Source: the human T2T-CHM13v2.0 reference genome, Homo sapiens
Assembly (NCBI RefSeq): GCF_009914755.1
Contig: NC_060944.1
DNA: 64,000 nucleotides
Reading direction: 5' to 3' (one strand)
Made by a program: the position numbers and the translations under genes. The notes below the pieces were generated by a model that made no database searches, had not been told where the DNA came from, and saw only the letters and a list, made by a program, of their open reading frames with translations. This document shows positions 34,493 through 64,000 of this stretch, in pieces. Position 1 is the stretch's first letter. Each line of letters starts with the position of its first letter.

Positions 34493-34815
<323 letters not shown>

Positions 34816-34829
34816 AAGAAATACCTTAA

Positions 34830-37800
34830 ATTACTCTGTGCCGGTCACCATTCTAAGTGGTTTATTTACATTCATTTATTTATCCTCACAACCACCCTAT
34901 GAACCTACGAAGTGGTTGTCATTATTATCTCCATTTTACATATGAGGAAACTGAGGCACAGAACAATAAAAGAATCTACCTAAGTAAAGGATGGAGCTAG
35001 GATTGAAAACTAAGCAATCTGTTAGGCTGGGTGCTGTGGCTCATGCCTGTAATCCCAGCACTTTGCGAGACCGAGGCAGGTGGATCACCAGAGGTCGGGA
35101 GTTGGAGACCAGCTTGACCAACATGGAGAAACCCCGTCTCTGCTAAAAATACAAAATTAGCCAGGCGTGGTGGCGCATGCCTATAGTCCTGGCTACTCGG
35201 GAGGCTGAGGCAGGAGAATTGCTTGAAAACCCAGGAGGCGGAGGTTGCGGTAAGCTGAGATCGCACCATTGCACCCCAGCCTGGGCAACAAGAATGAAAC
35301 TCTGTCTCAAAAAAAAAATTATTAATACTTTTAAAGACTGAGCTGTTTAAGAATTTTTGGGGGAATGTTTCTAGCAGTGACTTTTTTTGGCCTTTTTAAC
35401 ATAATGATAGTGTAAAGACAGGAGCCTTACAACTTAGTCAAAGCATTTCATGTGCAGTCCTTCTTCTATCTCCTTAAAATATGTATTTATTTTACATACA
35501 GACTTTTACACTAACTATTGAAAAATAAAGTAGGATCTGCTACAGTTTCCCCTGAAAATTTATAAAAAGTGTTGAGATTGTTAGAAGGCAGTTTTTAATA
35601 CAGGTGCACTACCCTAAAAGACTTGTCTATTGTCAATAAAGTATTTGTGAAATTATTATTTCTGTTCAGAAATACTATTTCTTAAATCTCCTGGGAATTT
35701 GTGGCATACTAAAGCACATTCAAAGTTCTAATGTGTTTATGAGCTCATTTTCAAAATAGTAAGTTTGTCATCTTTAAAATGAACGTAACTTGCTTCCTTG
35801 ATTTCTGAAATGAATTAACTGAAGATTGCTATAGTAATCTTTATTTCATCTTTCTAGAGTTGTTGGCAATTTTTTTATACAACAGTGACCATTAGAGAAG
35901 GGGGGAAGGGATTTTGGGTGTGTATTTGTAGGTACTAAGGGATTTACTAAATATAGTAGAGCACTGTCACACTTGTTCAAGTAGTTTCAAACGTAGAAAA
36001 TTAAGTATCAGAGGCAGGTATAGGGAGCAATGTAGTCTTTTTTTTTTCTTCAATTTTAAAAATTTTAAATTGTGGTAGAAGCAATGTATCCTTAAGGTGA
36101 AAAACCTACCTCAGTTACATGTGGTTTGTGTTTTCTGGATTAATCTGGATTTTATAATTAGAAATAAAAATGTAAGATTTTGAATCCACTTAATAATTTC
36201 TTGAAAATAATACAAGTCAGTGTAATAGAGAAGCATTCATATATTCAACACTGTAAGACAAAACAGCAGAGACCTTGGATTTGATAATTGATCTGATATC
36301 CTGGACAGTATTCATATGTACAGTGATAGGTATGTTTCTTTGGGGTTTTTTTGTGTGCATATGTGTGTAGTTTTATCGTTCTGAGTTGGTGACCAGTAAG
36401 TTCCATGTAGTGCTGGCACTTATTTAATAACTATTCATGATTTTGTTAATAACTTGTTACAGGATTCAGGCATATATTTTCAGCATAAGAAGCCAGACAC
36501 ACCAGCTTGTCATTGGAGATAATATATTAAGTGAGAAAAACATTCAGGAATCAGAACTTTAACATGTTAAAGTTAGTGCTAAACATGGTCATATTGGGTC
36601 TGAACCTATCCTAATATGTAACCATAAAGCTTGACTTTTGCATTGGAACTATGCTTTCATAAATAAAGGATATCCCATGGGATTGTAATTGTAATCCCAT
36701 ATTATCTGTAATTGTAATTCCCATATTATCTGAGAAGTAGTGTGACACCTTTCTTTTGTTGTTACATTAAGCTGAAAACATAATACTAATAGACGACTAA
36801 CAGTTTGCTTATCAGGCACATCAACTAAGGCACCTCCCCCCATGCTAAGTTTCTCCTGGATATATGGAAGTTGGTTGTTTCCCAGTTTAAAAACTTGAAC
36901 TAATATTACCTAAGAAAACCTGAGCCCATATTGTTTTTATTTTACTTAGCTAGAATCTCATAGCATGTTAAAGTCATACCTTATCCCCACTAAAAATAAC
37001 TATGTCTATGTGAGAGGAATATTATGTGTGGGAGCTGTATTAAATACTATTATAGGTGTTACAGAATCTTTAAATAAATGGACGTGGACCAACCTTCCAT
37101 CTAGTAGTGTACGATCTATATAGTGCATGTCAGTAGCACAAAATGCAGTCTTAGTTAGCATTAGCCTGTCTAATCTGAATAGTTTACTCAAAAGTACTTC
37201 TTTGTGTTAATTATTCAGCCATTGTTTTTAGATCTAGTTAATAGGTTCTATTTAATTTGCTGCAACATTTATTGAATGGGTGAGTGAAAGAACTGATGCA
37301 TATTGGGAAATATCTTACCATTTTTTAAAGATAATGTTACATTAGGAAAAGAACACTTTTAAGGAATTTATAGCAGTGATGAAATGAATTCAGTCTATAT
37401 CAGATACACCAAACTGTTGATGGTATTTAAATGTGACTGCAAGTTAGTATTTCTGTATATATTATTGATTACTGGTTTGTTTTTAGATATGTAAGTCTGT
37501 CCTAATCTACGGTTCACGTATTGACAGTTGCTCTGGTAATAATAGAATGTTAGTGATGATCACTTGGTGGATGTTGATTAAGTGCCTGTGTTTTGTTTTG
37601 TTTCCTCCTCTGGATACCAAATAGGTGTATGCTACTTTTTTGGTGAACTTATTTCTTGGAAGATTTGGTTATGCTATTCAGGGTTTTTATTCTTATGTTT
37701 TTCTTCTAAACTTAAGCAGCATCCTGCTGCTACCATATTAAAGCTCAAATTTAACTTTTGTGGAAAAATCAGCTAATTCAGGTAATCCAAATATTTGTGG

Positions 37801-38015
37801 AAAAACATCTGGGTAATTTATTGACCACATTAGTATTGTGTAGACAGCTTTGATTATTCCCATTGCATAGGTTTTTATTGTAGAATAGTCAACTTAATAT
37901 AGATTCACTTTTAATTTACATGTATAAAGTAATACTCAATAAAAATTTTTTCATTTATTTAAAAAAAAGAAAACTAAGCAATCTGGCTCTAGACTCCATA
38001 CTTTTAGATTGCTGT
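34830..38015. mobile_element. MIR element split in two by the 35022-37968 insertion
   Basis: Left half ccattttacatatgaggaaactgaggcacaga...gagctaggattgaaaactaagcaatctg resumes after the insert as gctctagactccatacttttag. Confidence 0.7.
35022..37968 (+). pseudogene. L1-mediated retrocopy of an unidentified mRNA 3' end (Alu + ~2.6 kb AT-rich 3'UTR-like sequence)
   Basis: Perfect 17-bp TSD GAAAACTAAGCAATCTG at 35005-35021 and 37969-37985; AATAAA 37938-37943, then A8 at 37961-37968; splits a MIR; no credible ORF. Confidence 0.8.
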
Positions 38016-38231
38016 ACCATTTCTCATCATAATGCTTGACTCTTAGGTGATATTTTGTCTTCTCCTGAGTCAGGCCTGGTGGTTACTATTTTCCCATTTT
38101 ACAGATGAGGAAATTGAAGCCCAGAGAGGGGATTTGACTTGCTCAAGATCACAGAAATTTTCTGGTGTAATGGAAGGGGCTGTGAGCCCAGGCCAGATCT
38201 CCTGCAGTAGATAATAATCACACTAGCAGTT

Positions 38232-40810
<2,579 letters not shown>

Positions 40811-62165: not shown

Positions 62166-64000
62166 CTCCACTTGACTGTTCTCTGCCCTACCAGCTACCT
62201 CACTCTTATTTTCCTTTTTTATCTCCAACTTTTCTTTCCTACAGATTTCAGCCAAATAACTCACATCTGTTCCCTCTGTTGGTTCCTAAACATAACTCCT
62301 CCAGCCTGGCTTCTGGGCAATCACCCCTCCCTGCCCCTAGACTGCTGCCCCCATGGACTTCCTTTTTGCGAGAGCCAGTGACCTGATCTTAGCACGGGAT
62401 TGGGAGTCAGAAGGCCTAGGCAGCTGGTCACTCACCAGCTGTGTGACCGTGAGCAACTTAAAGCACTTCTCTGAGCCATGGGTATGAATGTTAATTTGCA
62501 AAGTTGAGATGAGAGCATTAGAGTAATAGAATCATAATAGCTAAACTGTGTGTGTGTGTGTGTGTACCTGCTAAGAGCCAGGCACTGTGCTGAGAATTTG
62601 CCATGTATAATCACATTTAATCCCCACTACAACACCTCCAAATGAGGTCTGCTTCTTTCCCCACTTTACAAATGAGAAAATGGAGGCACAGAGAGGTAAA
62701 GTGATTTGCCTAAAGTCCCACAGCCCATAAATGATAGGTAGTAGAATATGAACCCAGGAGGTCTGATTCCAAAATTTATGCCCTATGGCTTCCTTACTGA
62801 CGGTGCTCAGTACAGATAAGTGGGAGGTGTGACTTGGTGTTAATAGGGACTCTAAGAGTCAGTGTGGGAATTGCCATTCCCCTGAAGCTAGGGATGGCAG
62901 GTGTGTTTGTGGGTTGGGGGTGGGGTACTTGAGTGATGCTCTCCCCTGAGGCAATGTCTTGCAGGATACACACCTTTCTACTTCATCTCAGATTTCAGTG
63001 TCTCCTCCACATCCTGCCAGAGCCTCTCTGGCCTGGCTGCCCCTCCCCTCTCTGGCAGGTTTGGGAGAAAGAGGCTTGGAGTTCCCCCATCCTAGATAGC
63101 GGGACAGATTCCTCATCTCGTGAGGCTGACCCTGATCTGGGGGCCTGTTATTAATAATGGCCTGCAGGGCTGTGTCATCCAGCTAGTGATTCAGGACTCC
63201 AGGGTCAGCACCCTCCCCATCCTGATGGAGCTACCTCAGTGAGGGGCTTAGAGTCTAAGCTATGACTCTACGTGAGGGTATATGCTGTTCTCTGCCTGCA
63301 CTCCCAGGGTCTTGGCTAAACTCTATTGTGGTATTAAAAAGAGAGGCTGGGGGAAGTGGGGAAGGGGATGTGGTAACCAGAACCACTTCCTGCCACTGCA
63401 GTGTTGAAAGCCAAGCTCTGTCCAAGTTCCCCTTGATGGGGGTTGGGGAGCCAGGAGGTAAAGGAGGAAGTTGATGGGAGTTGGGGGGGATGTTAAAAAA
63501 AGGAGGATTCTTATTTGGATTGACTCCAGGAATCAAGATCTGGGTTTCCTGGCTGCTCTCTCCCTGCTCCCATTTGGTAAAAAACAGCGGCTGTCCTGAA
63601 GGTGGTCCTAATTAGCATAGCAGTGAACACTTATTATCATGTGCCAGGCACTTTATATTTGCTAACACTTTGAGCCTTACAACCACCCCATGAAGGAAGC
63701 ACTATTATTACTCCAATTTTACAGATGGGGAAACTGAGGCACTGAAATGTTGTGTCAGTTGCCCTTGTCACACAGCAAGTCAGTGGCAGAGCTGAGATTT
63801 GAACTTAGGCAGCCTGGCTCCAGAGTGCAGGCTCTTGCTCTGTGACCACTCTGAGCCTCAGTTTCCTCATTGCATGATGAGGGTAATTGGAATACATAAA
63901 TCCACTTTCCTTTCTTGATGCCTGATTCTCTGGTAATTAATTATTCATTCAATTTCTCCCCATGCTGAACTCTCAGATCCATGAACAATGAGACAAAGGC

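What the first reader, a model, noticed from the sequence alone, without database searches (positions are those of the whole stretch)
35005..37985. Orphan 3-kb retrocopy: Alu + 2.6 kb 3'UTR-like DNA inside a perfect 17-bp TSD, splitting a MIR
Seen: GAAAACTAAGCAATCTG occurs at 35005-35021 and at 37969-37985. Between them lie TTA, a full Alu (~35025-35318), ~2.6 kb of AT-rich sequence with no recognisable repeats that contrasts sharply with the flanks, AATAAA (37938) and an A8 tail. Removing the block rejoins a MIR. Established: a TSD at a TT/AAAA-like site, a poly(A) signal and a poly(A) tail mark L1 target-primed reverse transcription. Inference: a 5'-truncated retrocopy of a long mRNA 3'UTR, with no coding part and so easy for protein-based pseudogene annotation to miss. 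The 3 nt before the Alu (TTA) match the end of the sequence after its tail (AATTATTA), so the Alu may already have been in the parent RNA, with reverse transcription stopping just past it; an Alu-mRNA template-switch chimera is the alternative. The many T-runs argue against Pol III read-through. I cannot name the parent gene.
Basis: partly seen in the sequence, partly recalled or inferred. Interest (0 to 1): 0.8.

Follow-up and report, generated by a model that had tools for sequence, protein, structure and literature searches.

The report
Retrocopy of the PAWR 3'UTR end
This 3-kb block is an ordinary L1-made, non-coding retrocopy of the far end of the PAWR (Par-4) gene's long 3' untranslated region from chromosome 12, and the Alu at its head was already in the parent RNA.

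Summary
The 17-base repeat is exact at 35005-35021 and 37969-37985 (0 of 100 shuffles give two matches). It encloses TTA, an Alu, about 2.6 kb of 31-34% GC DNA, AATAAA (37938-37943) and A8.

A search of the window's own genome found the parent on chr12:79566470-79569173, minus strand. That stretch lies 2.1-4.8 kb downstream of the stop codon of PAWR; its last exons match Par-4 in PDB 5fiy.

The parent carries the same Alu at the same place, including the TTA. It has no A-run after the cleavage site. This is therefore a 5'-truncated, L1-mediated retrocopy of a distal 3'UTR, not an Alu-mRNA template-switch chimera.

Copy and parent differ by about 5%, which suggests an age of roughly 15-30 Myr. 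Removing the block in silico restores one dispersed repeat, MIR by recall.

One extra result: about 221 bp (36467-36687), holding a proximal AATAAA, is missing from chr12. It survives here and in a second, older PAWR-UTR retrocopy on chr19 that ends at that signal.

This is a known kind of element and of low interest.

The parts
34841..35004 (+). Left part of the old dispersed repeat (MIR by recall) into which the block inserted
   Evidence: nhmmer with a profile of 29 genomic copies: the left flank matches model positions 21-206, E 5e-32. The first look found 132 genomic candidates; 40 were scored and all 40 matched.
35005..35021 (+). 5' target-site duplication (17 bp), preceded by TT, so the site reads TT|GAAAAC
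   Evidence: Exact repeat of 37969-37985; 2 matches in the window; 0 of 100 shuffles gave two matches. The sequence is itself part of the dispersed repeat, at model positions about 190-207.
35022..35024 (+). TTA: parental bases lying just upstream of the Alu in the chr12 source
   Evidence: The parent reads ...CAGTTATTA before the Alu, and the alignment to chr12 starts here.
35025..35318 (+). Full-length Alu (body 35025-35308, A10 tail 35309-35318), copied from the parent RNA
   Evidence: Two SRP-like halves in Rfam. It is 91.5% identical to the chr12 Alu; the next best of the 52 other near-full-length Alus compared is 86.7%. It aligns contiguously with the downstream UTR.
35319..36466 (+). 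Copy of PAWR distal 3'UTR, part A
   Evidence: Aligns to chr12:79567728-79568865, minus strand. 51 substitutions in 1126 aligned sites; K2P 0.047.
36467..36687 (+). About 221 bp absent from present-day chr12, holding a proximal AATAAA (36662-36667). The edges are ambiguous by a few bases because GGATT/ATTGTA recurs at both
   Evidence: In the whole genome it is found only here and in the chr19 copy (2 of 2 candidates scored). The chr19 copy runs through the left edge and ends in an A-run about 17 bases after the AATAAA.
36688..37960 (+). Copy of PAWR distal 3'UTR, part B, up to the cleavage site
   Evidence: Aligns to chr12:79566470-79567730, minus strand, 94%. 45 substitutions in 1227 sites; K2P 0.038.
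37938..37943 (+). Poly(A) signal AATAAA, conserved in the parent
   Evidence: Read. The parent has AATAAA at chr12:79566492, followed by a T-rich stretch after the cleavage point.
37961..37968 (+). A8: remnant of the poly(A) tail, not templated in the parent genome
   Evidence: At this point the parent continues ...CATTTATTTTTCAACAGTGG with no A-run.
37969..37985 (+). 3' target-site duplication (17 bp)
37986..38045 (+). Right part of the same dispersed repeat
   Evidence: The in-silico empty site gives one hit over model positions 22-258, 115.4 bits. 0 of 200 shuffled and 0 of 200 random controls reach that score. The right flank alone gave no hit at E<=10.

Best explanation
The block is a processed, non-coding retrocopy made by L1 target-primed reverse transcription.

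Proposed course of events:
1. A polyadenylated Pol II transcript from the PAWR locus on chr12 extended to a distal poly(A) site about 4.8 kb past the stop codon.
2. L1 endonuclease nicked a TT|GAAAA site inside an old MIR-like repeat on chr20, and the RNA was reverse-transcribed from its tail at that nick.
3. Only the last 2.9 kb was copied. The copy ends 3 bases (or 6, if one TTA unit was later lost) upstream of a sense-oriented Alu that was already embedded in the parental 3'UTR.
4. Second-strand joining left a 17-bp target-site duplication.

The insert has no coding part and is best taken as a neutral fossil about 15-30 Myr old.

Shown here: the TSD, the untemplated tail, the end at a poly(A) signal, the parent locus with the same Alu, and the position of the parent downstream of PAWR's last coding exon.

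Inferred: that the template was the long-3'UTR PAWR mRNA itself; that the 5' end reflects ordinary 5' truncation; and the age.
For: - The 17-bp repeat is exact and non-chance.
- A whole-genome search gives one near-full-length relative, on chr12, at 93-94%.
- blastn shows window 35022-36466 and 36688-37960 colinear with chr12:79569173-79566470, minus strand. The alignment runs through the Alu, its tail and the TTA.
- The retrocopy's Alu is closest to the chr12 Alu (91.5%; next best 86.7% among 52 others).
- The parent genome has no A-run where the copy has A8. It keeps the AATAAA and has a T-rich stretch after the cleavage point.
- Upstream on the same strand of chr12 lie open frames that match Par-4/PAWR in PDB 5fiy (E 1e-13 and 1.7e-11). 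The second ends at the protein's C-terminus, placing the stop codon about 2.1 kb before the copied stretch.
- No ATG-started ORF longer than 64 aa lies in the non-Alu interior.
- GC is 0.32 in the block and 0.36 in the 20-kb chr12 stretch, against 0.50 for the window.
- The in-silico empty site restores one dispersed repeat.
- A second, independent retrocopy of the same UTR on chr19 has its own 14-bp TSD and A-run. This shows the region was in polyadenylated RNA more than once.
- PAS-seq in two human cell lines lists PAWR among genes with 3'UTR lengthening, so the gene uses more than one poly(A) site (passages read in PMC12116747).
- UTR-only, 5'-truncated mRNA pseudogenes are a described class (abstract and passages of PMC2831318).
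Against: - No annotation of chr12 was available, so I could not show that an annotated PAWR transcript reaches the distal site.
- The 2.1 kb of UTR between the stop codon and the copied part has no other copy in the genome (1 of 1 hit is itself). No retrocopy therefore links the coding part to the distal part.
- The 5' end falls within 3-6 bases of the Alu's 5' edge. Random truncation would do this only rarely (about 7 positions in 4800). An AATAAA lies about 45 bases upstream of that Alu in the parent. The template could therefore have been an RNA species other than an intact long PAWR mRNA.
- The target site is TT|GAAAA, one base off the TT|AAAA consensus.
- The orthologous empty site in other primates was not examined because no primate genomes were available.
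Confidence: 0.9

Rival explanations
1. The template was not a 5'-truncated long PAWR mRNA but a separate RNA whose true 5' end lay at the Alu. One candidate is the downstream product of cleavage at the AATAAA about 45 bases upstream of the Alu. Another is a 5'-to-3' decay intermediate trimmed back to the folded, protein-bound Alu. Either would later have been polyadenylated at the distal site. On this reading the Alu fixed the 5' end and may have helped the RNA capture L1 ORF2p.
For: The copy starts 3-6 bases upstream of the Alu. An AATAAA lies at chr12:79569217, about 45 bases upstream of the parental Alu. Terai et al. propose that long mRNAs are truncated before reverse transcription (abstract of PMC2831318).
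Against: There is no direct evidence for such an RNA. One coincidence noticed after the fact is weak support. The other PAWR-UTR copy, on chr19, starts at an unrelated point with no Alu, so ordinary truncation does occur in this UTR. The target-site end ATCTG also resembles the parental ATCAG just upstream, which would fit microhomology-guided joining at a chance position.
Confidence: 0.08
2. Alu-mRNA template-switch chimera: L1 reverse transcriptase copied the UTR and then jumped onto a free Alu RNA.
For: The Alu is full length and sits at the extreme 5' end, as in known chimeric retrocopies. That class is described in the abstract of PMC13174262.
Against: The chr12 parent has the same Alu at the same junction, with the same flanking bases on both sides, in one unbroken alignment. 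The two Alus are each other's closest relatives among the 53 compared.
Confidence: 0.01
3. Either Pol III read-through from the Alu's internal promoter, or a DNA-level segmental duplication from chr12.
For: For Pol III: the copy starts almost at Alu position 1. For DNA-level duplication: high identity over 2.7 kb.
Against: Against Pol III: 37 sense-strand runs of T4 or longer (16 of T5 or longer), the first only 11 bases after the Alu tail, and an end at an AATAAA-type Pol II site. Against duplication: an A8 tail absent from chr12, an end exactly at the cleavage site, and a 17-bp TSD.
Confidence: 0.01

Closest known systems
5'-truncated, UTR-only processed pseudogenes of mRNAs (Terai et al. 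2009, PMC2831318; abstract and passages read)
   Same: It has a poly(A) tract and a TSD near the 15-bp mode reported for the class. It holds only 3'UTR sequence, comes from a long transcript, and is missed by protein-based pseudogene finders.
   Different: At 2.9 kb it is much longer than the class that paper stresses (300 bp or less; median of the newly found pseudogenes 356 bp). It also carries a parental Alu, which that paper's pipeline deleted from both genome and mRNAs before searching.
Classical L1-mediated processed pseudogenes / mRNA retrocopies made in trans (Kojima 2010, PMC2912911, abstract read)
   Same: Target-primed reverse transcription marks, 5' truncation and a normal-length TSD.
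   Different: It has no coding sequence. The usual 'intron loss' criterion cannot be applied, because the copied part is a single exon.
Chimeric L1-made retrocopies formed by template switching (Law and Burns 2026, PMC13174262, abstract read; earlier work by Buzdin and colleagues recalled, not read)
   Same: A full-length small-RNA-derived element at the 5' end, fused to the 3' part of another transcript inside one TSD.
   Different: Here the two parts are contiguous in the source locus, so no switch is needed.
The second PAWR 3'UTR retrocopy on chr19:10229901-10230868
   Same: Same parent UTR. It is 5'-truncated and has its own 14-bp TSD and A-run.
   Different: It is older: 22 lineage-specific changes, against 5 for chr20 and 8 for chr12, in 404 shared sites. 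It ends at the proximal AATAAA that chr12 no longer has, and it was later split by a younger Alu with a 17-bp TSD.

Membership tests
L1-mediated processed retrocopy (processed pseudogene in the wide sense) | Target-site duplication of about 7-20 bp flanking the insert | tested here: met
   17-bp exact repeat; 0 of 100 shuffles gave two matches.
L1-mediated processed retrocopy (processed pseudogene in the wide sense) | 3' poly(A) tract that is not encoded at the source locus | tested here: met
   A8 at 37961-37968; chr12 continues with no A-run at that point.
L1-mediated processed retrocopy (processed pseudogene in the wide sense) | The 3' end coincides with a polyadenylation site of the source transcript | tested here: met
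   AATAAA at 37938-37943 is conserved in chr12. Homology stops 17 bases after it. Use of that site in present-day RNA was not tested.
L1-mediated processed retrocopy (processed pseudogene in the wide sense) | A source gene elsewhere in the genome that lacks these marks | tested here: met
   chr12:79566470-79569173, minus strand, 2.1-4.8 kb downstream of the PAWR stop codon.
L1-mediated processed retrocopy (processed pseudogene in the wide sense) | Loss of introns relative to the source | not testable with these tools
   The copied stretch is colinear with genomic DNA apart from small indels and the ~221-bp piece. No intron falls inside it, so the criterion does not apply.
L1-mediated processed retrocopy (processed pseudogene in the wide sense) | L1 endonuclease-type target (TT|AAAA consensus; recalled and as quoted in PMC2831318) | tested here: inconclusive
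   The site reads TT|GAAAAC, one base off the consensus.
L1-mediated processed retrocopy (processed pseudogene in the wide sense) | An empty orthologous site in species that diverged earlier | not testable with these tools
   No primate genomes were held. As a substitute, the in-silico empty site restores a single dispersed repeat.
Template-switch chimeric retrocopy | The 5' and 3' parts derive from different source loci | tested here: not met
   The Alu and the UTR are contiguous at the chr12 source. The Alu pair are each other's closest relatives.
Pol III Alu transcript with read-through flank | No strong Pol III terminator (T-run) between the start and the 3' end | tested here: not met
   37 runs of T4 or longer, 16 of them T5 or longer, on the sense strand.
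MIR (mammalian-wide interspersed repeat), for the flanks | Match to the family consensus or core | tested here: inconclusive
   The flanks match a profile of 29 genomic copies of a highly dispersed repeat. No repeat library was on hand, so the family name rests on my recall of the core sequence.

The most novel reading that the evidence does not exclude
The Alu at the head of the insert may not be a bystander. On this reading the mobilised RNA began at the Alu. It would be either the downstream product of cleavage at the nearby AATAAA or a decay intermediate whose 5'-to-3' trimming stalled at the folded, SRP9/14-bound Alu. The Alu then helped this Pol II-made, polyadenylated RNA capture L1 ORF2p. 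The event would be an Alu-led piggy-back mobilisation of 2.6 kb of downstream sequence. Separately, this copy and the chr19 copy act as fossils showing that the PAWR 3'UTR once held a working proximal poly(A) site, which the gene in this genome has lost through a deletion of about 221 bp.
Probability: 0.07. Interest if true: 0.55.

Novelty: new member of a known kind. Interest (0 to 1): 0.15.

Why it matters
The finding names the parent (PAWR) of an unannotated 3-kb insert between FTLP1 and MMP9.

In itself the insert is a routine neutral fossil. It has two minor uses:

- It is a clean presence/absence marker for catarrhine or ape phylogeny.
- Together with the chr19 copy, it preserves an ancestral stretch of about 221 bp of the PAWR 3'UTR with a poly(A) signal that the gene in this genome no longer has. 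That bears on how 3'UTR isoforms of a tumour-suppressor gene changed during primate evolution.

The position of the 5' end next to the Alu is a single anecdote. It would matter only if a genome-wide survey showed it to be a pattern.

Tried and rejected
- A Pfam scan of three chr12 open frames gave nothing above the curated cut-offs. The best was PRKG1_interact at 23.5 bits against a cut-off of 32.4. Gene identity therefore rests on the PDB matches.
- blastn of the right flank alone against the window gave no significant repeat hit. nhmmer of the right flank without the TSD gave no hit at E<=10. The MIR continuity rests on the in-register hit that includes the TSD and on the joined empty-site test.
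- A genome search with the proximal 2.1 kb of the PAWR UTR found only itself. No retrocopy bridges the coding sequence and the distal UTR.
- Literature searches: 'PAWR' with 'processed pseudogene' gave 0 papers, and 'PAWR' with 'retrocopy' gave 0 papers. 'PAWR' with 'alternative polyadenylation' gave 6 papers. I read passages of one of them, and it gives no coordinates. Supplementary tables of retrocopy catalogues were not examined and may list this copy.
- One search had a badly formed term and was re-sent in corrected form.
- The rivals of template-switch chimera, Pol III read-through and DNA-level duplication were considered and rejected; the reasons are given under rival explanations.
- The first three-way alignment (segment s2) included misaligned chr12 bases beyond the deletion. 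Its chr12 distances were discarded and recomputed on 36059-36466 only.
Full report
**1. Observation**

None of 100 dinucleotide-preserving shuffles gave two matches.

Between the two copies the sequence reads, in order:
- TTA (35022-35024)
- an Alu body (35025-35308)
- A10 (35309-35318)
- 2.64 kb of AT-rich unique DNA
- AATAAA (37938-37943)
- 17 more bases
- A8 (37961-37968)

Rfam sees the Alu as two sub-threshold 7SL-like halves (43.9 and 42.5 bits; gathering score 70). That pattern is expected for an Alu dimer (established knowledge).

GC is 0.31-0.34 inside the block, against 0.44-0.52 in the flanking bins. No ATG-started ORF over 64 aa lies in the non-Alu interior.

**2. The parent**

I searched the window's own genome with the 2641-base interior. 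Besides the window itself, the search returned a two-piece match on chr12:79566470-79568865, minus strand, at 93-94% identity. It also returned two partial matches, on chr19 and chr13.

blastn of the wider region showed two colinear alignments:
- window 35022-36466 with chr12:79569173-79567728 (92%)
- window 36688-37960 with chr12:79567730-79566470 (94%)

The first alignment runs without a break through the TTA, the whole Alu, its A-tail (about 20 A in chr12, 10 here) and on into the unique sequence.

Among 52 other near-full-length Alus in the window and the fetched loci, the chr12 Alu is the closest relative of this one, at 91.5% against 86.7% for the next best. The Alu was therefore in the template RNA, and the template-switch alternative is rejected.

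At the 3' end, homology stops 17 bases after the conserved AATAAA. There chr12 continues with a T-rich stretch and no A-run. The A8 is therefore a post-transcriptional tail remnant.

**3. Which gene**

On the same strand of chr12, upstream of the copied part, are open frames whose translations match rat Par-4 (PRKC apoptosis WT1 regulator, PDB 5fiy). The first matches chain residues 39-76 (E 1e-13). The second matches residues 75-104, the C-terminus (E 1.7e-11). Pfam gave nothing above its cut-offs.

The stop codon lies at about chr12:79571277-79571279. The copied stretch therefore spans about +2.1 kb to +4.8 kb of the sequence downstream of the PAWR stop codon.

That this stretch is PAWR's own long 3'UTR is an inference from position and strand, because no chr12 annotation was on hand. 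A PAS-seq study lists PAWR among genes whose 3'UTR lengthens in two cell lines, so several poly(A) sites are in use (passages of PMC12116747).

The proximal 2.1 kb of this UTR has no other copy in the genome. No retrocopy links the coding part to the distal part.

**4. Mechanism**

Four features together are the signature of L1 target-primed reverse transcription of a Pol II transcript:
- the TSD
- the untemplated tail
- the end at a poly(A) signal
- the TT|GAAAA target, one base off TT|AAAA

This signature is summarised in PMC2831318 (abstract and passages) and PMC2912911 (abstract).

Pol III read-through from the Alu is excluded. There are 37 sense-strand runs of T4 or longer, 16 of them T5 or longer, and the first lies 11 bases after the Alu tail. 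DNA-level duplication is excluded by the tail and the TSD.

The 5' end lies 3 bases upstream of the Alu. It lies 6 bases upstream if one unit of the parental TTATTA was later lost.

The end of the target site, ATCTG, resembles the parental ATCAG just upstream. This would fit microhomology-guided 5' joining.

The closeness of the 5' end to the Alu edge is an unexplained coincidence, roughly 7 positions in 4800 under random truncation. So is the presence of an AATAAA about 45 bases upstream of the parental Alu. I keep a low-probability reading in which the template RNA really began at the Alu.

**5. Age**

Copy and parent differ at 133 of 2681 aligned sites (K2P 0.052). Excluding CpG sites the count is 112 of 2629 (K2P 0.044).

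In the 404 sites shared with the chr19 copy, lineage-specific changes number 5 on chr20, 8 on chr12 and 22 on chr19. The parental UTR therefore does not appear to evolve more slowly than the copy, though the counts are small.

A divergence of 4-5% lies between the human-orangutan and human-macaque genome divergences as I recall them (about 3% and 6.5%). That puts the age at roughly 15-30 Myr. This is an inference and was not tested on orthologues. Because the insert contains an Alu, it cannot predate primates.

**6. The insertion site**

The left flank belongs to a highly dispersed repeat: 132 first-look candidates, of which 40 were scored and all 40 matched.

A profile built from 29 fetched copies gave these matches:
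- the left flank at model positions 21-206 (97.5 bits)
- the 3' TSD plus right flank at positions 196-259, in register but weak (3.3 bits)
- the right flank alone: nothing at E<=10
- the two flanks joined in a script, with one TSD copy: a single hit over positions 22-258 at 115.4 bits

None of 200 shuffled right flanks (maximum 110.0 bits) and none of 200 random window 90-mers (maximum 113.5 bits) reached 115.4 bits. The block does split one old repeat. Calling it MIR is my recall of the core sequence.

**7. A fossil of a lost piece of the PAWR UTR**

Window 36467-36687 (about 221 bp) has no counterpart in chr12, where the two alignments abut. GGATT/ATTGTA recurs at both edges, which is what a microhomology-mediated deletion would leave, so the edges are ambiguous by a few bases.

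Across the whole genome, the piece is found only here and on chr19 (2 of 2 candidates scored; 95% identity over 212 bases).

The chr19 element (L009 5901-6885) is a separate retrocopy of the same UTR:
- It has its own 14-bp TSD.
- It starts at the equivalent of window 36059.
- It runs through the left edge of the missing piece.
- It ends in an A-run about 17 bases after the AATAAA at window 36662-36667.

Two independent RNA-derived copies therefore show that the ancestral UTR held this piece and that its AATAAA was used as a poly(A) site. The chr12 gene in this genome has since lost it.

Whether the loss is fixed in humans could not be tested. The right edge of the deletion coincides, within a few bases, with that old cleavage site, and I have no explanation for this.

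**8. Comparison and verdict**

This is a 5'-truncated, UTR-only processed retrocopy, a class already described at scale (PMC2831318). It is longer than most and carries a parental Alu.

RefSeq has no row for it in the hub's table. My two literature searches for a PAWR pseudogene or retrocopy found no paper. I did not check catalogue supplements or the GENCODE/UCSC tracks, and either may already list it.

It is a new member of a known kind, with low interest.

Noticed in passing
L009 5887-6902 (G000:C19:10229886-10230901): A second, older retrocopy of the PAWR 3'UTR, equivalent to window 36059-36684. It has its own 14-bp TSD (AAAAGACACAGCTG) and an A8 run, and it ends at the proximal AATAAA. 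It was later split by a younger Alu with a 17-bp TSD (AGAAATAAAAATGTAAG) and carries an expanded (GT)n run.
   Followed up: yes
window 36467-36687 versus G000:C12:79567728-79567730: About 221 bp of ancestral PAWR 3'UTR, including a once-used poly(A) signal, is missing from chr12 in this genome. It survives in the chr20 and chr19 retrocopies. The right edge of the deletion falls within a few bases of the old cleavage site, which I cannot explain.
   Followed up: partly
L010 5960-6661 (G000:C13:81412959-81413660): A third, more diverged fragment (74-84%) of the same UTR region, equivalent to window 35878-36276. It is interrupted by an antisense Alu. No tail or TSD was seen, so its origin (old retrocopy remnant or something else) is open.
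   Followed up: partly
G000:C12:79569217 (parent locus; L012/L011): An AATAAA followed by an A-rich run lies about 45 bases upstream of the parental Alu, and so just before the point where the chr20 copy begins. It may be another PAWR poly(A) site. Further AATAAA or ATTAAA hexamers lie at +100 to +4793 from the stop-codon region (15 in all).
   Followed up: no
window 36685-36733: In the chr20 copy, the stretch just after the missing-in-chr12 piece reads as two near-identical units of about 24 bases (GTAATTGTAAT(T)CCCATATTATCT). The chr12 counterpart is more diverged. This makes the local alignment and the deletion edge ambiguous.
   Followed up: no
window 38077-38125, 63675-63746, 62658-62692: Further copies of the same dispersed repeat core (MIR by recall) lie in the window. 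Alus flank the site at about 34512-34803 and 38245-38538.
   Followed up: no
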